Source: Phormidium sp. CCY1219 (GTDB lineage: Bacteria > Cyanobacteriota > Cyanobacteriia > Cyanobacteriales > Laspinemataceae). From it: a DNA stretch of 51,572 bases. Below, piece by piece: positions 15,498 through 37,395 of this stretch. The position numbers and the translations under genes are program-made. Within the stretch, counting starts at the first letter, position 1, and each line of letters begins with the position of its first letter. The stretch lies in NCBI RefSeq assembly GCF_035615515.1, contig NZ_JAJENT010000802.1:1-51572 (forward strand). Reading direction: 5' to 3'. The notes under the pieces were generated by a model. That model made no database searches, was not told the origin of the DNA, and saw only the letters and a program-made list of their open reading frames with translations.

Positions 15498-15775
15498 AGA
15501 AGCACAGGCGATCGCCCGACTATAGCGTTAGTGGCATTGCCCTCCCGCAAATATGCAGCGCCAGAGCGATTTTTCCTCAAACTAGGACAACAGATTAACA
15601 ATCACTAACAAAAAAGGGGGAATGACCCCCGTAGCGATCGCGGGGGGAGTCTGGTAGAGTCAAAAAAAATCAGCAGCACCCTTGCATAATTGGCGACGGA
15701 GTGTCCTACTAAAGTCATAGGCTCCTGAAAAAGCGCTTTCCAGCGGCTCACTTTGTTGTCTAAAGGAGAACGAGA

Positions 15776-17659
15776 ATGTTCAATCCTTTTCACCGCGATC
15801 GCATCCCAACGCCACCCAAGCGTTTGAATAACGCCGAGCGATTTTCCACCTGTCTGATGGTGGATACGCAGCAGGGGCGTGTAGTGTTGCAATGGATTAC
15901 CCAACCGCGTTTGAGGCGCAACTTTCAGTTATATGCGGCGCGGGATCCGAACTTCGCGCGCTTGGGCGATCGGCGAGAAAGCGCCTTAGAAGCGTTTTGG
16001 ATCGACCTCGCCCTGAATCCGCCACCCCCCCAACCCTGGGAACCCACCAATCGCGAGCAACTCGCGTTGCAACATTTAGCCAGTTACTACGAACTCATTT
16101 GTGACAAAGCTGCCAAATGGATCGTCAACAAACATGGCCAACTTTTATGGCAAGATGCGTTCGATATTGCCAGAATCCTAGTCCATGACGAGGAAAAATT
16201 GGCAAGTATTTTAAGTCAATATCAAGCCAAAGGAGACGCTAAATTATCCACCTATTTGCAAGAAGTTTTAATCAGAACGATTAAAAGCGAAGCCTCAGTG
16301 GGTCGGTATTCTTACTGGCGGTTAGTCTGTCAAACGCCGCAGTATAAATTAATCGATGCCTTAGGGAGATTCGGATGTCAAGAGCCGGAAATTTCGCAGA
16401 TTATTTTTGCGCGAAAGTATTTCCACCAAGTGTATTTATTTAACCGGGTGAAAAGTCCACACAGAAAGCCGGGAGAAATTTGGCCCGTGCCCCAACCGGA
16501 AGACTTTGGCGAAACGGCAAATTGCTACAATGCGGAAAGACTACTGCCTTCCGCACCCCCTGAAGTAGCCGCCAATCCCAATCCCGTCACTGGCGAGCAG
16601 ATGAAAGCCTGGATGGAAACCTGTTTTGAAGCCTTAAAAACCACCAAAAAGTTAACAAAAGAATGTTGGTCTCTTGACGTGCTTCGAGAAAAAGGCAGAG
16701 AATTTGCAGCTCCGGAAACGGAAAGCGAAGACTATTTTATTAACATAGTGGGAGAGGGTCAATTTAAGGGAGGTTACTTGAATGAAGCGAAAGGAATTAG
16801 CGAACGGTTGGAAACCGAGCTGAGAAACTGTAAAAATGTTATCGAACTGCAAGTGGAAAATGGTCGGTGGTTCATCGATGAAACGAACCTGCTTCCCCTC
16901 ACCTACGGATTCGGCTTGACCCAAACGCAGATTGCTGCTTTATGCAACCTAAAACAATATCAAGTCAGTCGAAAGCTGAGTTACTATAAAACTCAATTGC
17001 TGAACGCTTTAACCGAGATTAGTCAGCCCGAGGAATGGGTTTTGCCCTATGTTAGGGAGTGGTTGCAGAAATATTTTCCAGCTCCCAACCGTGCGGATAT
17101 CATTCAAGCGGCTTTAGTCGAAGCGCTCAAAGAGATTACAGCCTCAGAACGAGAGTTATTGTCCCTGTGCTACGGAGAGCAACTCGATGTCAGGGCGGTA
17201 GGCGATCGCCTGGGAATCTCGCCAGAGGAAGTCGAAGCGAAATTAAACCGCATTGAAACCCAGTTGCATAATGCGTTATTGAAGCACCTAGATAAATGGA
17301 TGAAAGAGTATATCAAGCAATGGCTGTATGAGGTTTACCAACTGTCCATTCAACAAGTCTTAATCCATCATGTCCAGGAGCTGCCATTGCCAATTCAGAA
17401 CAGCTTGCAAATTCATTATCAAAATTATGCCAAACCGGAACAATTAGCGCGGGAGGTGAGACTTAGCGAATCAGAGGATAGCCAGCTTTTTTGGAAAGGA
17501 AGGTGCCAGGTAGAAGAGGATTTAGTTCGGTGGATTTTGGAGGAACTAAACATTAACCTGACTGGAAATAAAGAACGGGAAAGAATTAATAAAATCGTCG
17601 AGCGAAACTTGATAGCCATCTATAAACAAGGTAAAGGAGGACAAGACAATGAGAGCTAG
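15776..17659 (+). CDS. hypothetical protein with duplicated sigma-70-like modules (region-2-like segment plus two region-4-like HTHs)
   Basis: LLWQDAFDIARILVHD..YLQEVLIRTIKSE (sigma region-2-like); LTQTQIAALCNLKQYQVSRKL (region-4-like); SERELLSLCYGEQLDVRAVGDRLGISPEEVEAKLNRIETQL (canonical region-4-like). Confidence 0.55.
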   Translation: MFNPFHRDRIPTPPKRLNNAERFSTCLMVDTQQGRVVLQWITQPRLRRNFQLYAARDPNFARLGDRRESALEAFWIDLALNPPPPQPWEPTNREQLALQHLASYYELICDKAAKWIVNKHGQLLWQDAFDIARILVHDEEKLASILSQYQAKGDAKLSTYLQEVLIRTIKSEASVGRYSYWRLVCQTPQYKLIDALGRFGCQEPEISQIIFARKYFHQVYLFNRVKSPHRKPGEIWPVPQPEDFGETANCYNAERLLPSAPPEVAANPNPVTGEQMKAWMETCFEALKTTKKLTKECWSLDVLREKGREFAAPETESEDYFINIVGEGQFKGGYLNEAKGISERLETELRNCKNVIELQVENGRWFIDETNLLPLTYGFGLTQTQIAALCNLKQYQVSRKLSYYKTQLLNALTEISQPEEWVLPYVREWLQKYFPAPNRADIIQAALVEALKEITASERELLSLCYGEQLDVRAVGDRLGISPEEVEAKLNRIETQLHNALLKHLDKWMKEYIKQWLYEVYQLSIQQVLIHHVQELPLPIQNSLQIHYQNYAKPEQLAREVRLSESEDSQLFWKGRCQVEEDLVRWILEELNINLTGNKERERINKIVERNLIAIYKQGKGGQDNES

Positions 17660-19109
17660 AAACCATCGCAGAATTAACCCGATTGATGACTCGTTAATGT
17701 TGAAAATCGCACCGGAAGACCAAGAACGAGGGTGGCAGCTTGCTCAGAGCCATTCCAATGCGATCGCCCGCTATCATGGATATCTCAACTGGCTGAGTGT
17801 TAAAACAGTCTTACCTTGGCTGGAGGAATGGGCAGCGGAAGAAAATTTACCCAGACCCGCAATTTGGCCCGGGGAAGAAAGAGTGCCGAGCGTTTTAGAA
17901 CTCGTCCATAATGGCACTGCCATTCAAGTGGGTAACAGGCGATTAATCCTGATTCCATCAGATGAAATGGAACCCGAATTGTTTACCGTACCCCAGGAAT
18001 GGGTAGACAATCCGAGCTGGATGGGAGATTATTATTTAGCAGTGACAGTTAGTGTGGAAGGAGAAGAGGATGACTGTTGGATGAAAGTATGGGGATTCGC
18101 CACCCACCGACAGGTGAAAAATCGAGGAAATTATGATGCAAACCATCGCAGTTATTCCCTAGCGCTTGCAGAGTTAACCCGTGACTTAACGGTAATGGAA
18201 ATTGCGTTAGGACTTCAGGTGCGCGAGGTAGTGAAACCTTTACCACAGTTATCGGAAACCGAAGTAAAACAATGGTTAGAGCAGTTGGGAGATGCGTCAG
18301 TATATTCGCCGCGCTTGCAATTGCAGGTGCCTTTTGAGAAATGGGCCGCCCTGTTGAGTGACGATCGCCTCAGACAACACCTGTGCGATCGACGCATGGG
18401 AAAATTAGCGGCGGAGGTGGAAAATACCTCGCCGGTAAAGTTGCGAGAATGGTTAGAGAATGTGCTTGACTCGGGAAAGAATGCGTTAGAAGATGGATGG
18501 CAACAGTTTGAGTGGCTGGTATCTCCAGCAGAACCCAGTGCGGTGCGCGGGAAAAGCGAAGTGGTAGACGCCATTGCACCAGTCATTCGCTTGCTGCAAC
18601 CCAAGGAATTAGAACAGACTCGTCGCCATGCGGCGGGGGTATTGGGAGAACTAGGGGTGGGCAATCCAGAGGCGATCGATGCGTTAACCCAATTGTTGCA
18701 TACCGCTCGCGAGGAGGAAACCCGTTGGCAAGCGGCGCTGAGTTTGGGTAAAATCAGTCCGGGGCATCCGCAAGCTGGAATTAGAAAAGCCAGGTATCTG
18801 GATTTTGGATTGCAGTTGGAGGGTCACTCGATTGCGTTAATTGTTGCCATTATGCCCAGAAATGATAACCGACTCGGCGTGTTTTTGCAAGTGCAACCAA
18901 TCGCGGGAAGGAAATTGCCACCCTATCTAAAATTGAGCCTACTTTCGGAATCTGGAGAAACGAAAAAAGAAGTGGAAAGTCGAAGTGATGAGGAAGGAAA
19001 AGGAAAGGATAACTTAATTCAATTGCGGTTTAGTCCGCCTTCGGGCACTCGATTTAAGGTGCGAGTTTCAGTGAATGAAGTTAGCGCTACCGAGGAGTTT
19101 ATCGCATAA
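17649..19109 (+). CDS. hypothetical protein with C-terminal HEAT/PBS-lyase-type repeats (possibly DUF1822-like); overlaps the upstream gene by 11 nt
   Basis: HAAGVLGELGVGNPEAIDALTQLLHTAREEETRWQAALSLGKI is an E-Z/HEAT repeat. The ATGAGAGCTAG overlap implies translational coupling. Confidence 0.55.
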   Translation: MRARNHRRINPIDDSLMLKIAPEDQERGWQLAQSHSNAIARYHGYLNWLSVKTVLPWLEEWAAEENLPRPAIWPGEERVPSVLELVHNGTAIQVGNRRLILIPSDEMEPELFTVPQEWVDNPSWMGDYYLAVTVSVEGEEDDCWMKVWGFATHRQVKNRGNYDANHRSYSLALAELTRDLTVMEIALGLQVREVVKPLPQLSETEVKQWLEQLGDASVYSPRLQLQVPFEKWAALLSDDRLRQHLCDRRMGKLAAEVENTSPVKLREWLENVLDSGKNALEDGWQQFEWLVSPAEPSAVRGKSEVVDAIAPVIRLLQPKELEQTRRHAAGVLGELGVGNPEAIDALTQLLHTAREEETRWQAALSLGKISPGHPQAGIRKARYLDFGLQLEGHSIALIVAIMPRNDNRLGVFLQVQPIAGRKLPPYLKLSLLSESGETKKEVESRSDEEGKGKDNLIQLRFSPPSGTRFKVRVSVNEVSATEEFIA

Positions 19110-19149
19110 CATATGCCGCAGTTAAGCGAATTAGCAGGGAACTACAGTT

Positions 19150-21636
19150 ATGGGAAAGGCGATCGTTTTAAAAATAGTGGCGGGTGACTTTGACAGCGGA
19201 TTTCCCGTTGTGTTACAAGTCTTGGACGAGCGCGGCGGTCTTCCTTTGGCAGAACGCTCGGGTTATCTTCCACCGCATCCGCATTTGGAAGGATATTATT
19301 TCAATTGGCAAACTAGCTTTCGCAGTCTGACAAGTCAGAGAGGGAGGGATTGGGGAATCGATCCAGATTTACCCTCTAATGTTTCTAATGAATACGATAT
19401 AGAAGCTTGTCGCGAATATGCCAAATTGCTAGAAAAAAATATGAAAGAGTGGCTGCGGCAGACAGTTGATGCAGGATGTCTAAACATTAGAGAGAGATTG
19501 ATTGAGGATTTGGCGGAAAATAGGGGTAACGTTCGCATAACGATCCAAGCCAATCCCAAATTATGGAAGATGCCTTGGTTGGAGTGGGATATATTGTCAA
19601 AGTATGCCGATTTGGGGATTGGGTTTAGTCTGCTGGAGTATCAGAAACCCGACGCGATCGCTCGCAGTGGAAAGCAAGGTGCTGCCGTGCGAATTTTGGC
19701 GGTGTTTGGCAACAACGAGAATATTGATTTGACACCGGATAAACAGGCGATCGCGCAACTGCCGAATGTCGAGTTAGAACCGTTGGAGCAACCCTCGGCA
19801 GCAGAAGTGATTCAGAAGTTACGAGATAAGAGAGGATGGGATATTTTCTTTTTTGCCGGTCACAGTCAAACCAAAGGCGATGAGGGAATCATTTATATCA
19901 ACGAACGGGAAAGTTTAGAAATCGGACAGTTTAAGGAGGCGTTAAAGGAAGCGATTCGCCAGGGATTGCAATTAGCGATTTTTAATTCTTGCGACGGATT
20001 GGGGTTAGCGGAAAAGCTGGCGGGATTGCACCTGCCGATCGCGATCGTGATGAAAGAACCCGTGCCCGATCGGGTAGCGCAGCGCTTTTTAACAGAGTTT
20101 TTGAAGGAATATGCATCGGGAGCGTATTTATATACGGCGGTGAGGCAAGGGCAAAAATGTTTAGAAGAATTTATCGATTTACCGGGATGTACCGGGTTGC
20201 CGATCGTCTGTCAGAATCCGGCTGAAGTGCCGCCGACATGGGAGGAGTTGCGGGGTAGGGAAAGGGGAAGTGTATTGATTCCCGAATCGATAGAGATAAG
20301 CGATGCCGGAACTATTTTCCGCGATCGCGAAAAGCAAGTGCCGGATGAACTCACTGGTTCCTCAGTTCGCGATCGTAAAATTGTATGGAGAAAACTGGGT
20401 CGCTCATTAGCTGTGAGTTTTGCGATCGGGCTGTTTGTCCTCAGCGCACAATGGCAAGGAAAACTTGAAACCTGGGAACTGCAAGCCTTTGACCATTTAA
20501 TGAGGCAGCTTCCCGTGGAAGACATAGATCGCAGGCTTTTAATTGTGGGAGCCGATGAAACGGATTTGAGCTTGTATGGACACCCTTTACCGGATGCTAT
20601 TTTAGCAGAAGTTTTAGAAAAAATCAATGAGTATCAACCTGCGGCAATTGGGTTAAATATTATTCGCGATCGTCCAGTGGAAAACAGAAATTATCCCGGC
20701 GAACATAACGCTTTCCTGACTCAGATAAATACTTCATCAAAAAATGTGATTTTAGTCTGTTCTATCGGAAATGACTTAGACAGTAGCACAGAGCCTTTAC
20801 CAGGACTGGTGGATAGCGAGCGACAAGTGGGATTTATTGATGTGTTTGACGATCGTGATTTAGCCCTGGACAATCGCTTACGTCGCTATCTCTTATATCG
20901 CAGTGATAATCCAGTTCCCGAGCCTACGAAATGTCATACTCCTTATTCTTTAGTTTGGCATGTAGTGGAGCGTTATTTCCAACATCATCACTCTATTGAC
21001 GTGACCCTATCCCATAGCCACTCAAAATTTGGCTCAGTTGGGATTCAACGGATCGCAAATCGCAGTGGGGGATACCAGAATTTGGGGGAATATGCTAAAG
21101 GCAATCAAATACTGATTCGTTATCGCCATACTCCGGATCCGAATCAGATCGCTCACCAAATTACCGTGCGAGATGTGTTGGAACAACGCCATTCGTTTAA
21201 ACGATCTCGAATCGAAGGAAATGTTGTTTTGATTGGCATGACCGCTCCAACGTTACAGAAGTCGTTTTCTACCCCTTATGGGAAAATTAGCGGGTTAAAC
21301 ATTCATGCCCATGTAGTGAGCCAGATCCTTAGTACCGTTGAGGGGGAATTGAAGGGCAAAAATAAGCGACCCTCGATTTGGTGGTGGCCTCAATGGGTTA
21401 ATGCACTTTGGGTATTATTATGGTCATCTATTGGTGGAACGATCGTCTGGCGTTTTCAACAACCTTTACAGCGATGGGTAGCCATTAGTGGTGCTATTCT
21501 GATATTATATGGAGTCTGTTTGTTTGCCTTAACTCAAGGAGGCTGGATTCCACTAATACCAACCATTTTAACCCTCCTGACCCCCACCTTTTGCTTGAGT
21601 TTATATACCCTATTCAAGCTGAAGTCGTTTGATTAA
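19150..21636 (+). CDS. CHAT (caspase-like protease) domain fused to a CHASE2 sensor domain: N-terminal cytoplasmic CHAT, TM, periplasmic CHASE2, three C-terminal TMs
   Basis: CHAT His/Cys dyad context DIFFFAGHSQ .. LAIFNSCDGLGLA. TM helix LAVSFAIGLFVLSA. CHASE2 motifs LLIVGADETDLSLYG, VGFIDVFDDRDLALDNRLRRYLLY, VVLIGMTAPTLQKSFSTPYGKISGLNIHAHVVSQIL. A hydrophobic C-terminus gives three helices. Confidence 0.8.
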   Translation: MGKAIVLKIVAGDFDSGFPVVLQVLDERGGLPLAERSGYLPPHPHLEGYYFNWQTSFRSLTSQRGRDWGIDPDLPSNVSNEYDIEACREYAKLLEKNMKEWLRQTVDAGCLNIRERLIEDLAENRGNVRITIQANPKLWKMPWLEWDILSKYADLGIGFSLLEYQKPDAIARSGKQGAAVRILAVFGNNENIDLTPDKQAIAQLPNVELEPLEQPSAAEVIQKLRDKRGWDIFFFAGHSQTKGDEGIIYINERESLEIGQFKEALKEAIRQGLQLAIFNSCDGLGLAEKLAGLHLPIAIVMKEPVPDRVAQRFLTEFLKEYASGAYLYTAVRQGQKCLEEFIDLPGCTGLPIVCQNPAEVPPTWEELRGRERGSVLIPESIEISDAGTIFRDREKQVPDELTGSSVRDRKIVWRKLGRSLAVSFAIGLFVLSAQWQGKLETWELQAFDHLMRQLPVEDIDRRLLIVGADETDLSLYGHPLPDAILAEVLEKINEYQPAAIGLNIIRDRPVENRNYPGEHNAFLTQINTSSKNVILVCSIGNDLDSSTEPLPGLVDSERQVGFIDVFDDRDLALDNRLRRYLLYRSDNPVPEPTKCHTPYSLVWHVVERYFQHHHSIDVTLSHSHSKFGSVGIQRIANRSGGYQNLGEYAKGNQILIRYRHTPDPNQIAHQITVRDVLEQRHSFKRSRIEGNVVLIGMTAPTLQKSFSTPYGKISGLNIHAHVVSQILSTVEGELKGKNKRPSIWWWPQWVNALWVLLWSSIGGTIVWRFQQPLQRWVAISGAILILYGVCLFALTQGGWIPLIPTILTLLTPTFCLSLYTLFKLKSFD

Positions 21637-21652
21637 ACTAATGCACTGATTT

Positions 21653-22432: not shown

Positions 22433-22542
22433 TACCTTGTTGGTAGCAAATCTCTCAATCTAAGATTTTCTGGTGTAGGGGCAATTCATCAATTAAACCT
22501 ACACTATTAATTGAGGCGCTATCCTCCTGGGGATTTGGACGT

Positions 22543-25359
22543 TTATCGCCAATTTCCGACTAAAATGTAAGGTGCCCAAGATTTGGGGTTTTGATACTTG
22601 AGAGTTTTTAAAAGAGCTTTTTGAGCGCGATGAAGTGCCTCAGCTTTCGTGACTCCCCTTTCGATGAATTCCAAATAAAACTGTTTCATCAGTTGATTGG
22701 TTGAGTCATCCTGAACTCGCCAAAGGGTAGCAAGGGTACTGCGAGTTCCGGCTCGGACTGCTAACCCGGCTAATCCTAAAGTAGCGCGGTTATCCCCATC
22801 GGCGGTTTTACAGGCACTCAAAACGAGTAATTCAATCGTGCTAGAGGGAGTGCGATCGCGAAGCAGTCTATCAAATTCGTTAGGTCGGATTAATTGACCA
22901 GTGGAGTTTGCTGAACCATAAACCAAGATATAAGTATTCTGTGGATTTGAACTAAATTGTCCATGAGTTGCCATGTGGACGATAGAAAACGATCCGATAT
23001 TTAACTTTTGTTTGAGTCGGGGCTGGGTAAACTCTGAGTTTAACAAAATTTGAGTCGAAACTAGATTGCTAATACTTTCTAGTTCAGTGCGGACATCTAG
23101 GGGTTGAAAGTTTTTATCTTCTACTGTTAGAGCTTCAGTAACTCCGGTTGCCAATACGCTGAGTTGGGCTGACTCTTGTTCTAAATCGAAAGTTTGTAAA
23201 TTTGGCAATAGAGCAATCGCATAATCCTTTTCCACTAAATATTTTTCGGTTTGGCGATCGTATAATGCTGCGATGGGAATATTTTTTAACTCCCCATCCA
23301 AGACAAAAACTAGGGTTTTGAGTTCAGCGCTAGTTTCTAAGGCGGGTTCTAGGGGTTGGATTAACCAGCGATAAAGATTATCAGAGTTCTCTAACAGATC
23401 TTCCAATGATGAAGGGTTGGCTAGTTTACGTCGGAGTGTTGCGACATTCTCTTGCACTTCTGCCCGAGGAATGGGAATCATCCGACGTTCTAATGATTGT
23501 TGGGGTAATTTAAACAAAACTTCTATCCGATTTGGCAAGAGAATCGGATAAATGAGGGCAGCATCTCGGGTAATCTCATTGAGCGATCGCTCAATTCGAG
23601 CCGATGAATCCAGCGATCGCCCGGCGTTAGAAACGGCTAGATTGCATTGCAGGAAGTTTTCGAGTTCAGCGAGTTGCAGCGCATCAATAAACTGAATTGC
23701 ATTTTGCAGGCGATCGCGATTTTGGTCAGCGGTTTGTAACAGCAGATCGACAAATTGCCGATACATGGGTTCAACATTATCTCTCAACGAAAACTGCACA
23801 TCGGCATTAACGGCCAATAAATCATTTCGCAGCGAATCTAGGATTTCAACGGCAGCGGTATAGTTACCGATCGCATCTTCTACATTCCCTTCACCCGCTA
23901 ACAACCGTCCCATCTGCCACTGCCACTGATATCTCAACTCTGGCGCATTACTTTGTACCGCTAACTCTAACGCTTCCTGAGTTAACGTTTTCGCTTTCTG
24001 TCTGTTTGGGTTATCTCCCTGCTTTTGCGCTTGTGGTGGCAAGAAAGATTCATAGCGTTTCCCTTGAGTCCCGATCGCATACGATTTTAGTCGCGCATCC
24101 CGTAATGTCTCCGCTTCTGTTACCGCCTGCTGCAATAATCCATCAATTTCTTCCCTCGAGACAAGCGCCAATTCTGCTGTCTCTCCCTGCCCTAATTTTT
24201 CGCACTGCATCAAACTACAGGCTAACTTAATTCGCGCTTCTACCAGTGGTTTACTCAGTTTCATCTCGCTCATCTGAGATTGAATCGCCGCCAATAAGGA
24301 TTGTAATTCTGTGCCTTGAGTTTCCGATTGACGCAGCAAACTGAAGAGATTTAATTGCGCTAGAAGTTTGATGGTAGGTGAAGGCGCGATCGCCAGCGCC
24401 TGGTGGTAATAATTTATTGCGGCTTTTCGATACTCCTCAGCCTCTTGTATCTCTCCATAGTCTTCTTTTTGTTTGGCTAAAGATTGTTGAGTATTAGCTA
24501 GGAAAAATAAGGTCAAGCTTTTTTCTCTCGGCGAATCGATTTGACTGATTAAAACCCAAGTATTCTGTAAAATTTGCTCCGATGCATCAAGCTGCCCGAT
24601 CGCTCGCAAAACATTTCCCAAACTCCGCAATGCGATCGCTTTGAGTTCCGGATTATATTCTCCCGCGAAATGCCGTTGCACCAATTCAATCTCTGACTCG
24701 GTTTCTATTGCATCACAAGACAAATTCTCTTCTGCGCCAACCACTTCCAATAACAGATTACAGGAGCGCCGATAATAGCCCATTTGTTCCAATGCCTGAG
24801 CTTGATTCACCAGTGCCCCGAGTTGTCCTTCTTCATCATTAAGGTGCTGGTATTCTGCTGCGGCATTTTCCCAACTGTCAAACGCGGTTTCTGCGTTTCC
24901 CAAAGCCAATAATAAATGACCTCGAGTATTCAATGCCACTGCACGAGCAATGCGATCGCCTCTTGTTTTTCCCATCCGTGCTAATTGCAGACTGGCCGAG
25001 CTGGCTTTTTCGGCATTGTCCCATTGTTTCAATTTTTGATAAGTTAAGGACAAATAACTCAATGCCAAAGACTGATTTAAGCGGTTGCCGTGTGCCGCAT
25101 AAAAATCCGCCGCTTGTTGGAGTGTTTCTGCTGCTTCAGAATAGAGATTGCGACGATAGAGTTCCCTCCCCCTTTCCATCAGTTGTTGGGGCGTAGCGGA
25201 TTGCGAGATAAGCTGGGACACTTCCCATGAGTGCCCTATCTGCAATCCGGGGATGCCGAGGGCGAATATTACCCCCAACATCCCTAACAGGAAGAATCTC
25301 AACCCCCGTTTCAGAACGGATTCCACCTGACGGAAAAATACACCCCATTTTCTTGCCAC
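22543..25359 (-). CDS. TPR-repeat CHAT-domain protease with an N-terminal signal anchor
   Basis: N-terminal TM (FFLLGMLGVIFALGIPGL). Several TPR units (YSEAAETLQQAADFYAAHGN..). C-terminal CHAT (SIVHMATHGQF .. LLVLSACKTADG). Confidence 0.85.
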   Translation of the reverse strand: MARKWGVFFRQVESVLKRGLRFFLLGMLGVIFALGIPGLQIGHSWEVSQLISQSATPQQLMERGRELYRRNLYSEAAETLQQAADFYAAHGNRLNQSLALSYLSLTYQKLKQWDNAEKASSASLQLARMGKTRGDRIARAVALNTRGHLLLALGNAETAFDSWENAAAEYQHLNDEEGQLGALVNQAQALEQMGYYRRSCNLLLEVVGAEENLSCDAIETESEIELVQRHFAGEYNPELKAIALRSLGNVLRAIGQLDASEQILQNTWVLISQIDSPREKSLTLFFLANTQQSLAKQKEDYGEIQEAEEYRKAAINYYHQALAIAPSPTIKLLAQLNLFSLLRQSETQGTELQSLLAAIQSQMSEMKLSKPLVEARIKLACSLMQCEKLGQGETAELALVSREEIDGLLQQAVTEAETLRDARLKSYAIGTQGKRYESFLPPQAQKQGDNPNRQKAKTLTQEALELAVQSNAPELRYQWQWQMGRLLAGEGNVEDAIGNYTAAVEILDSLRNDLLAVNADVQFSLRDNVEPMYRQFVDLLLQTADQNRDRLQNAIQFIDALQLAELENFLQCNLAVSNAGRSLDSSARIERSLNEITRDAALIYPILLPNRIEVLFKLPQQSLERRMIPIPRAEVQENVATLRRKLANPSSLEDLLENSDNLYRWLIQPLEPALETSAELKTLVFVLDGELKNIPIAALYDRQTEKYLVEKDYAIALLPNLQTFDLEQESAQLSVLATGVTEALTVEDKNFQPLDVRTELESISNLVSTQILLNSEFTQPRLKQKLNIGSFSIVHMATHGQFSSNPQNTYILVYGSANSTGQLIRPNEFDRLLRDRTPSSTIELLVLSACKTADGDNRATLGLAGLAVRAGTRSTLATLWRVQDDSTNQLMKQFYLEFIERGVTKAEALHRAQKALLKTLKYQNPKSWAPYILVGNWR

Positions 25360-28300
25360 GTTCTGTCCCTCGAATCAATCTCAACTAAAGGTAGACCCCA
25401 GTCTAACCGAGCAGAGAAGTCATTCCCCAGTTGCAATTGTAAACCCAATCCGGTGGAAAGTAACGTATTTTTATCCGGGTTGGCGCGATCGCCTTCATCC
25501 CAGTTCCACCCCACCCCCAAATCCACAAAGGGAATCACCTGCAAACTGCCTTGCAACTGGGGAAACTGGACAATCGGATATTGTAACTCTACCGAAGCAA
25601 AGGCCCCATTATCCACCAGTAATGCATCTTGGCGATAGCCCCGCACGCTATTGAATCCACCGACGCTAAACTGTTCTAATGGCAGTAGGGAATTCGTCGC
25701 TAACTGGATATCTCCGCGCAGGATGAGTAACGGATCTGTGCCCCCTGTTACGCCTAAACCGTCTAACCGACGCACCCACTGTCCCTGTCCCCGCCACGCC
25801 AAAAATCGGCTATCGGGTTCGTTGTCATTTACGGTGGCATCAAACCATCCGACACCCAAACTGAATTCGGACCGGGCGGCAAAGATTTGTTGACTGTCTT
25901 GCCATAAGGCATCTTGAAAGAATCGAATGGCAGAAACGCGGGTTTCACCGTTGTTGTTTGCGCCGGGGGAAAGGGGGAAATCTACGCCTAATAAAGAGGT
26001 TTCGCTTTCCCGACGCGAGGCGGTGATTCCTAATGCCAATTCGGTTCGAATTAAGTTGCTGGCATCTTGCAGGGATTGGTTGGGAGATTTGGGAATAATC
26101 CGTTGAATAATGGGTTGACGATAGCTGAGTTCGTAGGTGCGAGAATTCGCTTCGATATCCACTTCATCGAAAGGGGGTTCGACGATTTTGCTGTCGCCTG
26201 TGCTGTAGCGGAAAGTGAGGGTGCCATTGTTAGGGGTGAGGGGGAGGGCATACCCGAAATCTAAGTTGTTACTGCCATCGGTATTGGCATAGTTGAAGGT
26301 GGCAATGTCACCGAGTCCTAACAAATTGTATTGTGTGAGTTGCGCTTGACGACGCAAACTGCCAACCGAGGGCGATCGCCCGTTATCAATTGCCAATTGA
26401 GGGCTAAAAAATCGCGCTTTTTCGACGCTGACGGCGAGGAAACTGGTATCGGGTTCGATGCCTGCAGCAAGTTCGGCGGAGATGGTTTCCAGGCGGGGGT
26501 CGAATTGCAGGAGGTAGAGGGATTCTAGGAGGGTGTCGGTATTGACGATATCGCCGGGGTTTAATCCCAGACGGTTTCGCACGTAGGTGGCATATTGGTT
26601 GGTGAGGCGGGAGTTGCCGATGACGCGGATATCTTCGAGACGGTTTTCGATCGCTTGGATGGTGACGACGCGATCGCGCACGATTTGCGGCGGGAGAAAG
26701 GCCCCTGAACCGATATATCCTTGTTGTTCGTAAAAGGTGGCGATCGCTTCTGCTGCTTCCTGAAGTTCGGTAAACGTGAGATTGCGGTTGGTGTAAGGTT
26801 CGGTGATGGCGGCGAGTTGTTCGGGAGAAAGGGCGCTGCTGTCGCGCAGTTCAAATCGCGCTACGGTAAGGGTTTCGGGGACGGAAGCCACGGGAGTGGT
26901 GACAAGGGTTTTCGGTTGTTGTGCCGAGAGACAACCGGGGGAGAGTGAGGATTGATTGGTGAGGGGAGTGGCGGCGTCGGGTGCAATCAGTTCGAGTTCG
27001 CCGCGATCGTTGATTCTCATGCCGGTTGCTTCGATTTTGAGGATGCGGCGAGGTGGTACCGGTGAGGGAGTGTTGGGGAGGGGTTCTTCGGTGGCGGGTG
27101 TTTCCTCCAGTTGCAAGACGCGCCAATCTTCCCATCCCTCCCGAGGGGTGAGGGGATCGGTGGGACTGGCGGGGATGCCCCCTTTGCCGGTTTGGACAAA
27201 TTCGCTGTTTTGGACGATGCGACAGGGATCGCGATCGACGAGGGATGCTACATCTACGATTTCGTCTTCTAATTCGACAACGCCGCGACTGGGGTCGATG
27301 TCGGGAGTGTTGAGGGCAATTTGTCCGCTTAAGGTGGGATCGGTGCGCGAAATGGCGGTAATATCGCTGGTATCGGGGAGGTCTATAGTGGGGTCGAATT
27401 GACTCAAGTCAGCATCTAAAACGTTTTCCAATTCCTCTCGCGATCGCGGTTCTAATCCAAAGATTCCTTCAGCAGTAATATTAATAACGCCACCGCTGCC
27501 ATCAAAGGCATTGGCAGAAATATCGCTATTTTCTAAAGCAGCAATAATCTCGGTATTGATGTTAATATTACCGCCATTTCCAGGTAAATTTGCGGTTCCA
27601 GCAGTAGTGGAAATTTCGCTTTGGCGACGCAGGAACATATTATCGGATTCTACGATAACATTTCCTCCTTCACCGGAGGCAGTTTCTGCGGTGAGTCTTC
27701 CGGTCTCGAGACGGAATTCAGGACTGATAATTTGAAGATTGCCTGCTGCACCTCCGCCTAATGCGGCATCGACGGCTACTTTTGCTCGATCTTCGATATT
27801 TAATTGTTCGGTGGTAATGCTCAAGCTTCCCGCATTCCCCGTTCCGGTGGTGATAACGGTGATGCGACTGGGTAATAAACCGTCTGGATCTCGCGAGGGT
27901 AAGGGTTCAGTTGGGGGGATTGCCGATCGCCCAGTCACTTCAACAGAATCGGCATTAATAATCACAGAACCGCCTTGTCCATTGCCAAAAGTATCGGAGG
28001 AAATTGCTGCACCATCACCGACGATAACGCGATCGGCGGAAACCGTTATATCTCCTGCATCTCCCAGTTGAGCGACGGGGACTCGGGGATCCGGTCGAGA
28101 TTGACTAACTGCACCACTAGGCAATCCATCTGCATCGGTTCCGAGTAATTCTAGGGTTTCTGAAGCGTTTAAATTTAAAATGCCACCGCGTCCGGATCCT
28201 ACGGTGAGGACAGAAATTTGTCCGCCTTCTAACACCGTTAAATTGCGGGTATTGATGTTAATATTGCCGCCGGTAGATGTTCCAGTAGTTAAGGCAGTGA

Positions 28301-29843
28301 TTTCAGCGCGATCGCTAACGATTAACCCTCCCGTGTTGATGGTAATGTTACCTGCTTCTCCGGTTGCATTTGGCGCAACAAAAGCGGCTATTCTGCTCCG
28401 ATTTAATTCTCCACGGGGATTGGTAATGCCGCCACTGATTTCCAGCAATCCTGTATTTTCAATAGTCAAATTTCCGGCATTTCCACTGGCTGATGTGGAG
28501 GTAGAAATCACAGCGCCGTTCAGAATGGTTAAGCGATCGCTGCGAATGGTGATATCTCCCGCAGTTCCCGTTGCTGGAATGGGATCGATCCGCCGGAGTG
28601 CAACAATACTTAACAAGCTGCTCGGGCCGACTGGAGAAGCTCCGCTTAATTCTATTTCGCCAGCGTTAATCTCTAAATTTCCACCCCGTCCTCCAGCATA
28701 GGTACTGGTCGAAATTTGTGCGCCATTTCGGACTGTTAAGCGATCGGCTTCAATTGTTAAATTGCCAGCATCACCCGCTCCTTCCGTTTGATTGAATAAA
28801 CCGGCTGCCAGTGGAGGTGGAGGTTCTGCACCCGCTGGAATATTGGGAGGAATTGGTCGTGGTAAAAAACCACTCACTTCGATTTCTCTTCCTTGAATGG
28901 TTACATCTTGTCCCGGTGCGAAACCATAGGTGCTACTGGTAATTCCTGAATTTTCCACAATCAGGCGATCGCCGCGCACTTGAATCGCACCCCCTCCCCC
29001 GCGTGCATTGGGAAACATTGGCGGCAAACTGCTGGCATCTACCACAGAATTATTGATAACTTGAATGTTACCAAACTGTTCTATTTCCTGATAAGACAAT
29101 GAAAATCCTGTCTCTGCGGGGGCTAAATTGACGGTGCCATTCACCACACCACCCAGTTCGATTCGTCCTTCTAATGCGGCGAGGTTCCCATTATTTAAAC
29201 TAACCTCTCCCCCCACCAAACCCAACGTTTGTCCCGGCGCAACAGCCAACCCTAACGGCGCACCAATGCTATTGACGGGAAATTGTTCGGGAGTTGCTTG
29301 GGATTGATTGATGATTCTGCCGGTATTGCTCTCAAATTGTAATTCTGTAGGAATGCTAATGGTTAAAATGGGTGTAGTTGTGGCAAGGTCGGTGCTAAAC
29401 AAGCTACCATCGGCAAACCCAATCCGATTGGCGGTAGTTGCTAAAAACGATCCACCGATTCGTAATTGAGCGTTGGGTCCAAAAATAATCCCATTGGAAT
29501 TGATTAAAAATAAGTTTGCAAACCCATTGGCACTCAAAATTCCATCTATATTTGAGATTGAATCTCCGGTGATGCGAGAAAAGATATTTTGGATGGCGGG
29601 AGAATTGTTAAAAAAAGCGCTGCCATTAGTGGGGATAGAAAATTCCTGGAAGCTATGGAAGAGATTGCCGCCTCGGATGGTTCCCCCGTTAATCTCGAAG
29701 CGGTTCCCGTCAGAATTGATGAGGGAATTGTCGGGAAGGGTGGTATCGGGGACAATTTGAGGAAATGCTGGAGTAGCGATCGCTACAATCGCTAGAGAAA
29801 AACCGCTCAAAAACCAGCACCCTGAAAACGCATTGGGTTTCAT
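25311..29843 (-). CDS. two-partner-secretion protein carrying both a TpsA-type TPS (haemagglutination-activity) domain with beta-helix passenger and a C-terminal TpsB (ShlB/FhaC-type POTRA + beta-barrel)
   Basis: Signal peptide. TPS domain NGGTIRGGNLFHSFQEFSI..NIFSRITGDSISNIDGILSANGFANLFLINSNGIIFGPNAQL. Long Gly/Asn-rich beta-helix repeats. POTRA (LTFTELQEAAEAIATFYEQQGYI..), then a beta-barrel ending ..YFSVRWNPF. Confidence 0.8.
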   Translation of the reverse strand: MKPNAFSGCWFLSGFSLAIVAIATPAFPQIVPDTTLPDNSLINSDGNRFEINGGTIRGGNLFHSFQEFSIPTNGSAFFNNSPAIQNIFSRITGDSISNIDGILSANGFANLFLINSNGIIFGPNAQLRIGGSFLATTANRIGFADGSLFSTDLATTTPILTISIPTELQFESNTGRIINQSQATPEQFPVNSIGAPLGLAVAPGQTLGLVGGEVSLNNGNLAALEGRIELGGVVNGTVNLAPAETGFSLSYQEIEQFGNIQVINNSVVDASSLPPMFPNARGGGGAIQVRGDRLIVENSGITSSTYGFAPGQDVTIQGREIEVSGFLPRPIPPNIPAGAEPPPPLAAGLFNQTEGAGDAGNLTIEADRLTVRNGAQISTSTYAGGRGGNLEINAGEIELSGASPVGPSSLLSIVALRRIDPIPATGTAGDITIRSDRLTILNGAVISTSTSASGNAGNLTIENTGLLEISGGITNPRGELNRSRIAAFVAPNATGEAGNITINTGGLIVSDRAEITALTTGTSTGGNININTRNLTVLEGGQISVLTVGSGRGGILNLNASETLELLGTDADGLPSGAVSQSRPDPRVPVAQLGDAGDITVSADRVIVGDGAAISSDTFGNGQGGSVIINADSVEVTGRSAIPPTEPLPSRDPDGLLPSRITVITTGTGNAGSLSITTEQLNIEDRAKVAVDAALGGGAAGNLQIISPEFRLETGRLTAETASGEGGNVIVESDNMFLRRQSEISTTAGTANLPGNGGNININTEIIAALENSDISANAFDGSGGVINITAEGIFGLEPRSREELENVLDADLSQFDPTIDLPDTSDITAISRTDPTLSGQIALNTPDIDPSRGVVELEDEIVDVASLVDRDPCRIVQNSEFVQTGKGGIPASPTDPLTPREGWEDWRVLQLEETPATEEPLPNTPSPVPPRRILKIEATGMRINDRGELELIAPDAATPLTNQSSLSPGCLSAQQPKTLVTTPVASVPETLTVARFELRDSSALSPEQLAAITEPYTNRNLTFTELQEAAEAIATFYEQQGYIGSGAFLPPQIVRDRVVTIQAIENRLEDIRVIGNSRLTNQYATYVRNRLGLNPGDIVNTDTLLESLYLLQFDPRLETISAELAAGIEPDTSFLAVSVEKARFFSPQLAIDNGRSPSVGSLRRQAQLTQYNLLGLGDIATFNYANTDGSNNLDFGYALPLTPNNGTLTFRYSTGDSKIVEPPFDEVDIEANSRTYELSYRQPIIQRIIPKSPNQSLQDASNLIRTELALGITASRRESETSLLGVDFPLSPGANNNGETRVSAIRFFQDALWQDSQQIFAARSEFSLGVGWFDATVNDNEPDSRFLAWRGQGQWVRRLDGLGVTGGTDPLLILRGDIQLATNSLLPLEQFSVGGFNSVRGYRQDALLVDNGAFASVELQYPIVQFPQLQGSLQVIPFVDLGVGWNWDEGDRANPDKNTLLSTGLGLQLQLGNDFSARLDWGLPLVEIDSRDRTWQENGVYFSVRWNPF

Positions 29844-36968: not shown

Positions 36969-37395
36969 GAAGTGGCGCAGCGAGTCCCCCGGGGTTCGCG
37001 AATCGGGCGATCGCGTCTGCTGGGGGACAAGCGGAATCTGGCTTGGTAACGTTTTCATCGGCAACCTCCCTGTCGGTTTAACTCCCTTAACCCTTTAGTG
37101 GGAAAGGCACGAACCGATTATGCAAGGCAGTTCGCCCGCCGTTTTCCGGTTCGCTATTTGCTTAGTGGGAGAGGGGATGGAAAATTATGCACGGCTGGAA
37201 AAAAATTCCTGCTGCAATCTCGAGATGTCTGCCACCCTGGGGGGCGATCGCCAATTGTGTAGCTTCGCAAACGCCTTCGCTTGGATCCATCGCCACAGTG
37301 GCTCCCAAAAATTGCGGTGGGATGGAAACCGACTGCTGCATAATTTGCCAATGTTTTCCCCAATAAATAGATAGAAGATTGCGAGGTCATTAAAT

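What the first reader, a model, noticed from the sequence alone, without database searches (positions are those of the whole stretch)
15776..29843. Six-gene CHAT / CHASE2 / TPS / sigma-like cluster: candidate envelope-sensing protease signalling system
Five co-directional genes have overlapping or near-abutting ends. They encode a double sigma-70-like HTH protein, a HEAT-repeat protein, a CHAT-CHASE2 sensor and a secreted DUF928-like protein. Convergent on them is a pair encoding a TPR-CHAT protease with a signal anchor and a self-contained TpsA+TpsB secretion protein. Caspase-like CHAT domains are therefore predicted on both sides of the membrane, alongside an outer-membrane secretion module and sigma-like DNA-binding modules. 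This is the gene content expected for a regulated-proteolysis cascade, analogous to anti-sigma cleavage, that could link a periplasmic or surface cue to transcription. None of these proteins has an assigned function.
Basis: inference. Interest (0 to 1): 0.75.

Follow-up and report, generated by a model that had tools for sequence, protein, structure and literature searches.

The report
Caspase-gated sigma signalling cluster, cyanobacteria
This cyanobacterial gene cluster appears to couple a membrane sensor carrying a caspase-like protease to a sigma-like transcription factor and to an operon of exported proteases and a self-secreting surface protein; it is widespread, has never been tested experimentally, and only its core was previously noted by computation.

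Summary
The six ORFs exist at the stated coordinates and have the stated domains. Corrections: four genes, not five, are co-directional, and the "HEAT protein" is a DUF1822 protein with a HEAT insert.

Synteny is conserved but modular. In 79 cyanobacterial loci, DUF1822 sits directly upstream of the CHAT-CHASE2 gene in 67/71 and DUF928 directly downstream in 58/72. A sigma-like gene, long or short, precedes DUF1822 in about 69%. TPR-CHAT and/or a TPS gene lies within 10 kb in 26/36. Both CHAT domains keep invariant His/Cys dyads.

New findings:
- A 30-nt promoter-like motif, TGCATAAT-N14-CCYAMTAA, occurs five times in the window (0.11 expected). All five copies lie in the two intergenic regions that bracket the cluster. 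In related genomes the motif is conserved upstream of both the sigma operon and a giant S8 subtilase gene, which heads the TpsAB/TPR-CHAT operon.
- The TpsA-TpsB fusion is common in Oscillatoriales. Two reviews of type V secretion do not mention it.

The core (caspase sensor, sigma, DUF1822) was described in silico by Kaur et al. 2021. DdvA-DdvS and Craspase-Csx30-RpoE are the closest mechanistic precedents. The proteolytic cascade is still an inference.

Verdict: a real system, a new variant of a known kind. Interest 0.6.

The parts
15528..15557 (-). Weaker copy of the promoter-like motif (2 mismatches): TGCATATT-N14-GCCACTAA. It ends 30 nt upstream of the NfeD start at 15497.
   Evidence: An equivalent copy lies upstream of NfeD in L082.
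15683..15712 (+). Promoter-like motif TGCATAATTGGCGACGGAGTGTCCTACTAA, 64 nt upstream of the g1 ATG.
   Evidence: Invariant block in the alignment of g1-ortholog upstream regions. Motif scans.
15776..17659 (+). g1: 627-aa sigma-70-like protein with two or three sigma4-type HTH repeats and a divergent sigma2-like N-terminal region. No TM segment.
   Evidence: Pfam Sigma70_r4 and r4_2 and NCBIfam TIGR02937. 20 of 24 family members hit Sigma70_r4. The family profile hits SigF and FliA sigma4 in the PDB at E 9e-8. The sigma2-like block hits a sigma2 domain only at E 0.013.
17649..19109 (+). g2: DUF1822 protein with a HEAT insert. Cytoplasmic. Candidate sigma-holding partner or protease substrate.
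   Evidence: Pfam 2e-81. AF2 model with pLDDT 83.9. Adjacent to the g3 homolog in 67/71 loci. Its form co-varies with the sigma form, p=4e-12.
19150..21636 (+). g3: inner-membrane sensor protease. From the N-terminus: an alpha+beta domain (EACC2-like), a CHAT caspase domain (H238, C281), a disordered linker at 371-410, TM1, a periplasmic CHASE2, and three TM helices.
   Evidence: Foldseek matches to separase, SAVED-CHAT, DdvA and caspases.
21653..22432 (+). g4: exported DUF928 protein with a signal peptide, two conserved Cys residues and a conserved P-G-R-rich N-terminal motif. Candidate periplasmic partner of CHASE2.
   Evidence: Adjacent downstream of g3 homologs in 58/72 loci.
22543..25359 (-). 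g5: exported or membrane-anchored TPR-CHAT protease (H795/H799, C850). The true start may be the TTG near 25302.
   Evidence: Dyad invariant in 26/26 and an N-terminal hydrophobic segment in 24/25 homologs.
25311..29843 (-). g6: a fused TpsA-TpsB. From the N-terminus: signal peptide, TPS domain (NSNGIIF motif), beta-helix repeats, Pro-rich linker, POTRA, and a ShlB/Omp85 barrel (VRGY motif).
   Evidence: The fusion is conserved in about 60 protein clusters of Oscillatoriales.
30952..36696 (-). Probable seventh member: a 1914-aa protein with DUF4114, S8 subtilase, P-domain, Calx-beta and SH3 domains. It is the first gene of the S8-TpsAB-TPR-CHAT operon in related genomes.
   Evidence: Pfam. Same position in L081, L082, L083 and L084. 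Motif upstream in the window, L081 and L082.
37095..37124 (-). Promoter-like motif TGCATAATCGGTTCGTGCCTTTCCCACTAA, about 400 nt upstream of the S8 start.
37162..37191 (-). Second, tandem copy of the motif, TGCATAATTTTCCATCCCCTCTCCCACTAA, 67 nt upstream of the first.
37337..37366 (+). Motif copy TGCATAATTTGCCAATGTTTTCCCCAATAA, 30 nt upstream of the CAP/DUF5648 gene.
37396..38526 (+). CAP (cysteine-rich secretory protein family) plus DUF5648 protein. Candidate member of the same regulon, on the evidence of the motif only.
   Evidence: Pfam. Motif.
15033..15497 (-). NfeD-like membrane protein, divergent from g1. Candidate regulon member on weak evidence: a 2-mismatch motif copy. The neighbour is conserved in L082 and L083.

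Best explanation
The cluster is a trans-envelope signalling circuit built from a conserved cyanobacterial cassette.

SHOWN
- The cassette is a sigma-like gene, DUF1822, a gene encoding [alpha+beta domain]-CHAT-TM-CHASE2-3TM, and DUF928. It is conserved in gene order across cyanobacteria.
- Both CHAT domains keep their catalytic His/Cys residues.
- Predicted topology places one caspase in the cytoplasm (g3) and one outside the inner membrane (g5).
- The sigma-like form and the DUF1822 form co-vary.
- A two-block motif, TGCATAAT-N14-CCYAMTAA, lies upstream of the g1-g4 operon, of the S8-(Uma2)-TpsAB-TPR-CHAT operon, and of two flanking genes. In related genomes it is conserved at the first two positions.

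INFERRED
1. g1 acts as an alternative sigma factor. Its sigma4 is closest to SigF and FliA, and the motif has sigma28-like geometry. g1 would read these promoters, auto-amplifying its own operon and switching on the exported module.
2. DUF1822 holds g1 inactive. It would be translationally coupled to g1 and would play an anti-sigma-like role, as Csx30 does.
3. A periplasmic cue is sensed by CHASE2 together with DUF928. This activates the cytoplasmic CHAT domain. The CHAT domain then cleaves DUF1822 and/or its own disordered linker (residues 371-410), which frees g1.
4. The induced operon delivers three things: a surface beta-helix protein that secretes itself through its own fused TpsB barrel, a periplasmic TPR-CHAT protease, and a giant subtilase. 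These remodel or arm the cell surface. Their proteolytic products may feed back on DUF928/CHASE2.
For: - Domains and topology.
- Invariant dyads: H238/C281 in 16/16 g3 homologs; H795/H799/C850 in 26/26 g5 homologs.
- The g3 model matches separase (E 5e-9), SAVED-CHAT, the transmembrane anti-sigma factor DdvA (E 8.5e-6) and caspases.
- Synteny: DUF1822 adjacent in 67/71 loci and DUF928 in 58/72. TPR-CHAT or TPS lies within 10 kb in 26/36. g5 and g6 are adjacent in 12/16.
- Unbiased clustering ranks exactly these families highest.
- Long sigma pairs with long DUF1822 in 25/25 cases and short with short in 25/28.
- The same 7-gene order occurs in L081, L082, O. acuminata PCC 6304 and Baaleninema simplex, with different outer flanks in Baaleninema.
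- Motif: 4 exact sites plus one 2-mismatch site in the window against 0.00 and 0.11 expected. It is conserved upstream of sigma in L001, L081 and L082 and upstream of S8 in L081 and L082. It is absent from 1.4 Mb of other loci, from L083 (short sigma) and from L084 (no sigma).
- Precedents: CHAT cleavage of the sigma-binding protein Csx30 (PMC9825189); a periplasmic TPR-CHAT anti-sigma factor paired with an ECF sigma (PMC11506125); and the proposal of Kaur et al. for this very neighbourhood (PMC8195603).
Against: - There is no experimental datum for any member.
- The sigma2 region of g1 is detected only marginally (E 0.013; 1 of 24 members in Pfam). g1 could therefore be an ordinary multi-HTH regulator, and the motif could be its operator.
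- About 30% of cassettes lack a recognisable sigma-like gene directly upstream, including L084.
- The exported module varies among TPS/TPR-CHAT, C39-ABC exporters plus RTX proteins, and giant Calx-beta proteins. About 28% of fully flanked loci have neither TPS nor TPR-CHAT.
- The motif is confirmed only in four closely related genomes plus one metagenome fragment. The pattern was refined on the window's own sites.
- The S8 copies lie about 400 nt from the start codon.
Confidence: 0.45

Rival explanations
1. Conflict or immunity (apoptosis-like) system. The CHASE2-caspase protein senses an envelope-level sign of attack by phage or a competitor. Its caspase acts as a suicide or immune effector, and the sigma factor switches on defence genes. 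This is the framing of Kaur et al. and resembles DdvA-DdvS control of a CBASS/CRISPR island.
For: - The core neighbourhood is catalogued among prokaryotic apoptosis and immunity systems (PMC8195603).
- g3 resembles SAVED-CHAT and DdvA in structure.
- Paralogous expansion and tandem duplicates occur (L027 and L048), as do plasmid copies.
- A NACHT-WD40 STAND gene lies nearby in the window.
Against: - PADLOC has no hit for g1-g4 or g6.
- The recurrent neighbours are exported proteins and secretion machinery, not nucleases, CBASS, CRISPR or toxins.
- The locus is syntenic and chromosomal between housekeeping genes. It keeps its position among Laspinema-like genomes and O. acuminata.
- The motif-linked output is a surface and protease operon.
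Confidence: 0.2
2. g1 is not a sigma factor. It is a conventional multi-HTH transcription regulator, and TGCATAAT-N14-CCYAMTAA is its operator. The g3 caspase would still control it, but through an activator or repressor mechanism rather than through release of a sigma factor.
For: - Only sigma4-type HTHs are robustly detected.
- The sigma2 signal is marginal.
- g1 is 627 aa with repeated HTHs, unlike any canonical sigma.
- The family is narrow, with 137 representatives.
Against: - The N-terminal block aligns in register with sigma region 2.1-2.3, including the K-L-x-T-Y motif. The top PDB hits for that block are sigma2 domains.
- In other loci the short-form proteins occupying the same slot have the size and layout of an ECF sigma, with weak r2 and r4 hits.
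- NCBI names the PCC 7120 homolog a sigma-70 family factor.
- The motif has fixed two-block spacing at promoter distance from g1 and from the CAP gene.
Confidence: 0.2
3. Two unrelated systems lie side by side. One is a sigma/DUF1822/CHAT-CHASE2/DUF928 signalling cassette. The other is an independent secretion locus for a TPS adhesin or exoprotease, with TPR-CHAT as its own maturation protease. There is no functional link between them.
For: - The position and orientation of the TPS/TPR-CHAT module relative to the cassette vary.
- 10 of 36 fully flanked loci lack both genes.
- Other loci carry T1SS and RTX genes instead.
Against: - 72% co-occurrence within 10 kb is far above what a rough estimate of my own (not computed here) of about 7% would give, assuming some tens of such genes scattered through an 8-Mb genome.
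- The same order persists in Baaleninema despite different outer flanks.
- The shared motif lies upstream of both operons in three genomes.
- A metagenome fragment carries two motif copies next to a DUF928 gene.
Confidence: 0.1

Closest known systems
EACC2-caspase / ECF sigma / DUF1822 neighbourhoods (Kaur, Iyer, Burroughs & Aravind, eLife 2021; PMC8195603). Computational description only.
   Same: [quoted passage not shown] CHASE2 with TM helices is named explicitly.
- Adjacent sigma and DUF1822 genes.
- A proposed sequence of stimulus, caspase activation and sigma-driven transcription.
   Different: - That paper, as far as I searched it, does not link DUF928, TPR-CHAT, TPS/TpsB or a giant S8 protein to the system. 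It gives no promoter motif.
- It calls DUF1822 a TPR protein. The model here shows an alpha/beta domain, a helical/HEAT region and a beta-sandwich instead.
- Here the sigma-like partner is a 627-aa protein with several sigma4 repeats, not a typical ECF sigma.
[quoted passage not shown]
   Same: - A CHAT protease fold with a His-Cys dyad coupled to an alternative sigma across the inner membrane.
- A flexible linker next to the TM helix, proposed there as the self-cleavage site.
- The signal is unknown.
- The g3 model matches the DdvA structures 8rw5 and 8rot.
   Different: - DdvA is one polypeptide, with a zinc-binding anti-sigma domain in the cytoplasm and TPR-CHAT in the periplasm.
- Here the membrane protein has the CHAT domain in the cytoplasm and CHASE2 in the periplasm. 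No anti-sigma domain is detected, and the periplasmic TPR-CHAT is a separate exported protein.
- The output there is a CBASS/CRISPR island. Here it is an exported-protein operon.
Type III-E CRISPR Craspase: the Csx29 TPR-CHAT protease cleaves Csx30, which binds the sigma factor RpoE (PMC9825189).
   Same: A signal-activated CHAT protease, a non-canonical sigma-binding protein encoded next to it, and an alternative sigma factor as the downstream effector.
   Different: - The activator there is target RNA bound by Cas7-11. No CRISPR components are seen in the window.
- DUF1822 shows no detectable similarity to Csx30.
- The Craspase system is wholly cytoplasmic.
Two-partner secretion (type Vb) and PlpD-type type Vd secretion (PMC5422565, PMC4104836).
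   Same: - g6 has a bona fide TPS domain, POTRA and a ShlB/Omp85 barrel with the VRGY loop-6 motif.
- The passenger-POTRA-barrel order in one chain matches type Vd.
   Different: - Type Vb is defined by separate TpsA and TpsB proteins, whereas g6 is fused.
- The type Vd passenger is a patatin lipase, not a TPS/beta-helix protein.
- Neither review mentions TPS-TpsB fusions.
Cell-surface signalling (FecA-FecR-FecI type) and RseA/sigmaE regulated intramembrane proteolysis. This comparison rests on my own knowledge of these systems.
   Same: The logic is shared: outer-membrane protein, periplasmic step, inner-membrane transducer, alternative sigma, and proteolysis as the switch.
   Different: None of the component families is shared. 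There is no TonB-dependent transducer, no FecR or RseA anti-sigma domain, and no DegS or RseP in the cluster.

Membership tests
EACC2-caspase / sigma / DUF1822 system (Kaur et al. 2021) | Caspase-fold domain with a His-Cys dyad, preceded by a constant N-terminal alpha+beta domain | tested here: met
   H238 and C281 are invariant. The AF2 model shows an alpha+beta domain at 1-160 and a CHAT domain at 180-355. Foldseek matches separase, SAVED-CHAT and caspases. No EACC2 profile was available, so identity of the N-terminal domain rests on position and fold class.
EACC2-caspase / sigma / DUF1822 system (Kaur et al. 2021) | Variable C-terminal sensor, for example CHASE2 with TM helices | tested here: met
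   Pfam CHASE2 at 6e-56 over residues 426-763, flanked by TM helices.
EACC2-caspase / sigma / DUF1822 system (Kaur et al. 2021) | Neighbouring DUF1822 gene and sigma-factor gene | tested here: met
   In the window, g1 and g2 lie directly upstream. Across loci, DUF1822 is adjacent in 67/71, and a sigma-like gene lies upstream of DUF1822 in 53 of 77.
ECF sigma / transmembrane anti-sigma pair (DdvS-DdvA, RseA type) | Two-domain (sigma2 plus sigma4) ECF sigma of about 200 aa | tested here: not met
   g1 is 627 aa with two or three sigma4-like repeats. The sigma2 signal is only marginal. Other loci do carry short, ECF-sized proteins in this slot.
ECF sigma / transmembrane anti-sigma pair (DdvS-DdvA, RseA type) | Membrane protein with a cytoplasmic anti-sigma (ASD/ZAS) domain | tested here: not met
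   Neither Pfam nor NCBIfam reports an anti-sigma domain in g2 or g3. Structure searches of the g2 model find no anti-sigma fold.
Sigma-70 family | Sigma4 HTH that recognises the -35 element | tested here: met
   Sigma70_r4 and r4_2 score above the Pfam cut-offs. 20 of 24 family members match. The family profile hits SigF and FliA in the PDB at E 9e-8.
Sigma-70 family | Sigma2 domain (core binding and -10 recognition) | tested here: inconclusive
   The best PDB hit of the N-terminal block is a sigma2 domain, at E 0.013 and in the correct register. Pfam Sigma70_r2 matches only 1 of 24 members.
Sigma-70 family | Binds RNA polymerase core and directs initiation at cognate promoters | not testable with these tools
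   Only a candidate promoter motif was found.
Two-partner secretion (type Vb) | TpsA with an N-terminal TPS domain, and a TpsB with POTRA plus a 16-strand barrel | tested here: met
   TPS 8e-63, POTRA_2 2e-14, ShlB 9e-24, Omp85 2e-12. The NSNGIIF and VRGY motifs are visible in the translation.
Two-partner secretion (type Vb) | Passenger and transporter are separate polypeptides | tested here: not met
   g6 is a single 1510-aa ORF. The fusion is conserved in Laspinema, O. acuminata, Baaleninema, Trichodesmium and others.
Type Vd secretion (PlpD) | Patatin-like passenger fused to POTRA and a barrel | tested here: not met
   The fused order is the same, but the passenger is a TPS/beta-helix protein and there is no patatin hit.
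CHASE2 sensor proteins | TM helix, extracytoplasmic CHASE2 and three TM helices, followed by a C-terminal cytoplasmic output domain | tested here: not met
   The sensor core is present. The output (CHAT) is N-terminal, and nothing follows the last TM helix. Some relatives add a C-terminal cyclase domain (P0048 and P0050).
Known anti-phage defence systems (PADLOC) | Match to a defence-system protein model | tested here: not met
   No hits for g1-g4 or g6. Only generic TPR and subtilase hits were found, for g5 and the S8 giant.

The most novel reading that the evidence does not exclude
A closed envelope-to-genome feedback circuit that is specific to cyanobacteria.
- A CHASE2-gated cytoplasmic caspase frees a new class of sigma28-like factor with several sigma4 repeats from a DUF1822 holder.
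- That factor reads TGCATAAT-N14-CCYAMTAA promoters.
- These promoters deploy a previously unclassified type V secretion subclass (a TPS passenger fused to its own TpsB barrel), together with a periplasmic caspase and a giant subtilase.
- The proteolytic products of these exported enzymes are the ligand that DUF928 and CHASE2 sense.
Probability: 0.2. Interest if true: 0.8.

Novelty: new variant of a known kind. Interest (0 to 1): 0.6.

Why it matters
- CHASE2 is a common bacterial sensor domain, and this work turned up no ligand or signalling mechanism for it. CHAT and caspase proteases are only now being recognised as switches for bacterial sigma factors, in Craspase and DdvA.
- This cassette occurs in hundreds of cyanobacterial species, often in several copies, and none has been studied. 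More than 1780 CHAT-CHASE2 proteins and 587 species-level loci were found.
- The locus offers a compact, testable case. It has a predicted sensor, protease, holder and sigma, a concrete promoter motif, and a defined output operon.
- If the model holds, it gives a new route for envelope-to-transcription signalling in the phylum that includes bloom-forming and mat-forming cyanobacteria.
- It also documents a fused TpsA-TpsB architecture that blurs the type Vb/Vd classification of secretion systems.

Tried and rejected
1. Consensus sigma70-promoter and terminator scans of 15000-31500 gave counts at shuffle level. They are not used.
2. The first iterative-HMM run timed out. The iterated model for the C-terminal half of g6 was contaminated by full-length ORFs, giving hit sets identical to the N-terminal half, and was discarded. 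A plain phmmer search replaced it.
3. hhalign of the short sigma-like family (A2) against g1 or its family (A3) found only a weak HTH match, E 0.02-0.28. The two forms are treated as positional equivalents, not as proven homologues.
4. The A2 profile against the PDB hit ECF SigK and RpoE only at E 0.05-0.17. This is suggestive only.
7. PADLOC and Rfam found nothing relevant.
8. Look-ups of P0182, P0153 and P0161 found no record.
9. A tblastn search of plasmids with DUF928 found cyanobacteria only, so there is no evidence for the system outside the phylum.
10. Footprinting of upstream regions of Nostoc-type long sigma genes (A7) showed no shared block. The motif cannot be generalised beyond the Laspinema-like clade.
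Only L168 was informative.
12. The S8 giant could not be tested in the 80 genome loci, because it lies at the edge of the 10-kb flank.

Full report
**Observation**

The window is the 51,572-bp contig of Phormidium sp. CCY1219. The g2 product is 100% identical to a protein of that organism whose longest contig has exactly this length. Pfam and NCBIfam confirm the domain calls.

- g1 (15776-17659, +): a sigma-70-like protein with Sigma70_r4 and r4_2 above cut-off and a second HTH upstream.
- g2 (17649-19109, +): DUF1822 (2e-81) with an inserted HEAT_2 unit.
- g3 (19150-21636, +): CHAT plus CHASE2.
- g4 (21653-22432, +): DUF928.
- g5 (22543-25359, -): TPR plus CHAT.
- g6 (25311-29843, -): TPS, POTRA_2 and ShlB/Omp85 in one frame.

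Only four genes are co-directional, so 'five' is a slip. Spacing is operon-like. g1 and g2 overlap by 11 nt, and the gaps to g3 and g4 are 40 and 16 nt. g6 and g5 overlap by 49 nt, or abut if g5 starts at a TTG near 25302. That start would give g5 a classical signal peptide.

Hydropathy analysis and an AF2 model of g3 (pLDDT 79.9) support the predicted topology. g1 and g2 are soluble. In g3 the N-terminal alpha+beta domain and the CHAT domain lie in the cytoplasm. They are followed by a disordered linker (371-410), a TM helix, a periplasmic CHASE2 and three C-terminal TM helices. g4 and g6 have signal peptides, and g5 has an N-terminal hydrophobic segment.

**Catalytic competence**

In an alignment of 16 g3 homologues at 38-79% identity, H238 (FFAGHSQT) and C281 (FNSCDG) are invariant. 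In 26 g5-type proteins, H795, H799 and C850 are invariant, and 24 of 25 homologues have the N-terminal hydrophobic segment. The g3 model matches separase over about 470 columns (E 5e-9). It also matches SAVED-CHAT, the transmembrane anti-sigma factor DdvA (E 8.5e-6) and procaspases.

**Synteny**

CHAT-CHASE2 proteins are abundant: at least 1780 were found, all cyanobacterial among those that carry a name. A scan of one genome per species found 587 confirmed loci, of which I analysed the best 80. I used phmmer and HMM searches with the window's proteins. I also ran an unbiased all-against-all clustering of every ORF of at least 150 aa.

The clustering ranks the families by the number of loci that contain them:

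| Family | Loci |
|---|---|
| CHAT-CHASE2 | 80 |
| DUF1822 | 74 |
| DUF928 | 66 |
| TPR-CHAT | 36 |
| short sigma-like protein (~230 aa) | 33 |
| long g1-type protein | 26 |
| TPS | 25 |
| C39-peptidase ABC exporters | 17 |
| RTX proteins | 16 |

DUF1822 is directly upstream of the CHAT-CHASE2 gene in 67/71 loci, and DUF928 is directly downstream in 58/72. Among 36 loci with full 10-kb flanks, 26 contain TPR-CHAT or TPS and 12 contain both. Where both are present they are adjacent in 12/16.

The sextet is therefore a conserved 3-4 gene cassette joined to a variable module of exported proteins.

The sigma slot comes in two forms that track the form of DUF1822. Long sigma pairs with long DUF1822 in 25/25 cases, and short with short in 25/28. 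Fisher's test gives p = 4e-12, uncorrected for phylogeny. This co-variation argues for a physical partnership between the sigma-like protein and DUF1822.

**The sigma-like protein**

The g1 family is narrow, with 137 representatives among 1.84 billion proteins. Its HTH repeats are genuine sigma4. 20 of 24 members hit Sigma70_r4, and the family profile hits SigF and FliA sigma4 domains in the PDB at about 1e-7.

A block in the N-terminal half aligns in register with sigma regions 2.1-2.3. Its best PDB hit is a sigma2 domain, but only at E 0.013, so I call sigma2 inconclusive. The short form has ECF size and layout and gives weak r2 and r4 hits. NCBI annotates the PCC 7120 homologue as a sigma-70 family factor.

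**DUF1822**

**The exported module and a seventh gene**

The TPS-POTRA-ShlB fusion is not peculiar to this genome. About 60 protein clusters from Laspinema, Oscillatoria acuminata, Baaleninema, Sodalinema, Okeania, Trichodesmium and others share it. Nostocales and other orders instead carry unfused TpsA proteins of 900-1300 aa, with no ShlB detectable within 10 kb.

Two reviews of Omp85/TpsB and of two-partner secretion define type Vb by separate partners and do not mention such fusions.

Gene tables for four other contigs show the same order: giant S8 subtilase, TpsAB, TPR-CHAT, then on the opposite strand DUF928, CHAT-CHASE2, DUF1822 and (where present) sigma. The contigs are L081, L082, O. 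acuminata PCC 6304 and Baaleninema simplex. The outer flanks differ in Baaleninema.

The 1914-aa S8/P-domain/Calx-beta protein at 30952-36696 therefore belongs to the system. The Uma2 gene at 30123-30797 is an insertion that the other genomes lack. One metagenome ORF (P0132) fuses g6 and g5, which is either real or the result of an indel.

In PCC 7120 plasmid alpha, the cassette lies next to a TpsA gene, a C39-ABC/HlyD exporter and a giant Calx-beta protein.

**A shared promoter-like motif**

Aligning the regions upstream of g1 orthologues from four genomes revealed an invariant TGCATAATT followed by a conserved ...TAAA. The exact 9-mer occurs three times in the window. One copy is upstream of g1 and two lie in the S8/CAP intergenic region. 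From 4^9 and the window length I estimate about 0.4 exact copies by chance.

All sites share the extended form TGCATAAT-N14-CCYAMTAA. There are four sites with at most 1 mismatch (0.00 expected in shuffles) and five with at most 2 mismatches (0.11 expected). The five sites all lie in the two divergent intergenic regions that bracket the cluster:

- 64 nt upstream of g1;
- 30 nt upstream of NfeD (the weaker, 2-mismatch copy);
- two tandem copies about 400-470 nt upstream of S8;
- 30 nt upstream of a CAP/DUF5648 gene.

In related genomes the motif recurs upstream of the sigma gene (L001, L081, L082) and upstream of S8 (L081, L082). It is absent from O. acuminata (short sigma), from Baaleninema (no sigma) and from 1.4 Mb of other loci. 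A 1.6-kb metagenome fragment with two tandem copies carries a DUF928 gene.

The geometry resembles the sigma28 consensus TAAAGTTT-n11-GCCGATAA (PMC2859248), which fits the SigF/FliA-like sigma4 of g1. The pattern was refined on the window's own sites. The independent support is its cross-genome conservation at two different operons.

**Mechanism**

I propose a circuit in which DUF928 and CHASE2 sense a periplasmic cue. The cytoplasmic CHAT domain of g3 is then activated and cleaves DUF1822 and/or its own linker. g1 is released and transcribes its own operon, the S8-TpsAB-TPR-CHAT operon and flanking genes. The exported proteases and the self-secreted beta-helix protein act at the surface and may feed back on the sensor. 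Every step after the domain, topology, synteny and motif evidence is inference.

There are three precedents:

- Kaur et al. 2021 described the caspase/sigma/DUF1822 core in silico and proposed caspase activation upstream of the sigma factor.
- DdvA-DdvS pairs a periplasmic TPR-CHAT anti-sigma factor with an ECF sigma.
- In Craspase, Csx29 cleaves the RpoE-binding protein Csx30.

The rival explanations are a defence or apoptosis-like role, g1 acting as an ordinary regulator, and chance adjacency of two systems. The last is weakened by the motif and by the 72% co-occurrence.

**Comparison and novelty**

The core is a member of the computationally described EACC2-caspase neighbourhood, and all of its listed features are met. 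The system works like DdvA-DdvS, Craspase and cell-surface signalling but is not a member of any of them: there is no anti-sigma domain, no canonical ECF sigma and no Cas components. g6 has every part of a two-partner system but violates the defining separation of partners.

As far as the searched literature shows, the following are new:

- the link of the cassette to DUF928, TPR-CHAT, TPS and the S8 giant;
- the pairing of sigma and DUF1822 forms;
- the candidate promoter and regulon;
- the recognition of the fused TpsA-TpsB as a widespread architecture.

I rate the finding a new variant of a known kind, with interest 0.6.

Noticed in passing
window 14179-15039 (+): Two ORFs (126 and 158 aa), in the same frame and separated by a single in-frame TAA at 14557-14559, together encode a Major-Vault-Protein repeat/shoulder (SPFH-like) protein. 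It is either a pseudogene or a stop-codon interruption. It lies convergent with an NfeD gene (15033-15497), the usual partner of SPFH proteins.
   Followed up: partly
window 30123-30797 (-): A Uma2-family putative endonuclease gene sits between the S8 giant and g6. It is absent at this position in L081, L082, L083 and L084, so it looks like a recent insertion into the operon.
   Followed up: partly
window 30952-36696 (-) and 37396-38526 (+): Neither the giant S8/Calx-beta protein nor the CAP/DUF5648 protein has a recognisable signal peptide, although both have 'extracellular' domains. They begin similarly (MSIDLG... and MAIDIY...). Their export route is unknown.
   Followed up: no
window 36697-37095; L081 163-566; L082 3694-4091: The motif copies upstream of the S8 gene lie about 400 nt from the start codon in all three genomes. 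This implies a long conserved leader or a mis-set start. Rfam finds nothing there.
   Followed up: partly
window 38984-43231 (-) and 43637-45517 (+): A 1415-aa NACHT (NNH5 N-terminal domain)-WD40 STAND protein and a Ser/Thr kinase-WD40 protein lie next to the cluster. L082 also has a kinase-WD40 gene nearby.
   Followed up: no
window 10620-13382 (+): A 920-aa hybrid protein with three receiver domains, an OmpR-type DNA-binding domain, an Hpt domain and a GGDEF domain, which is an unusual combination. A further GGDEF protein (47680-48783) and a histidine kinase (45754-47133) lie downstream.
   Followed up: no
L081 6793-13854: In one ENA metagenome contig the TpsAB and TPR-CHAT genes are called as a single 2353-aa ORF (P0132). 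It is either a true fusion or an indel in the 49-nt overlap region.
   Followed up: partly
L027 2451-13336; L048 3647-13665: Two Nostoc genomes carry two divergently arranged copies of DUF1822/CHAT-CHASE2/DUF928 side by side. This indicates paralogous expansion of the cassette.
   Followed up: no
L085 (Nostoc sp. PCC 7120 plasmid alpha, NC_003276 323697-348479): The model strain PCC 7120 has a copy of the cassette on plasmid alpha, with sigma and DUF1822 divergent from CHASE2 and DUF928. It lies beside a TpsA gene, a C39-ABC/HlyD exporter and a giant Calx-beta protein of more than 5000 aa. This gives a genetically tractable place to test the system.
   Followed up: partly
L074 4564-9249 (-): A 1562-aa protein shares only the N-terminal 369 residues of g3 (the alpha+beta and CHAT domains) and has a different C-terminal region. 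It illustrates the variable-sensor architecture described by Kaur et al.
   Followed up: no
L168 1168-1266 (+): A 1651-bp metagenome fragment has two identical copies of the motif, 69 nt apart, downstream of a DUF928 gene. This mirrors the 67-nt tandem upstream of S8 in the window.
   Followed up: partly
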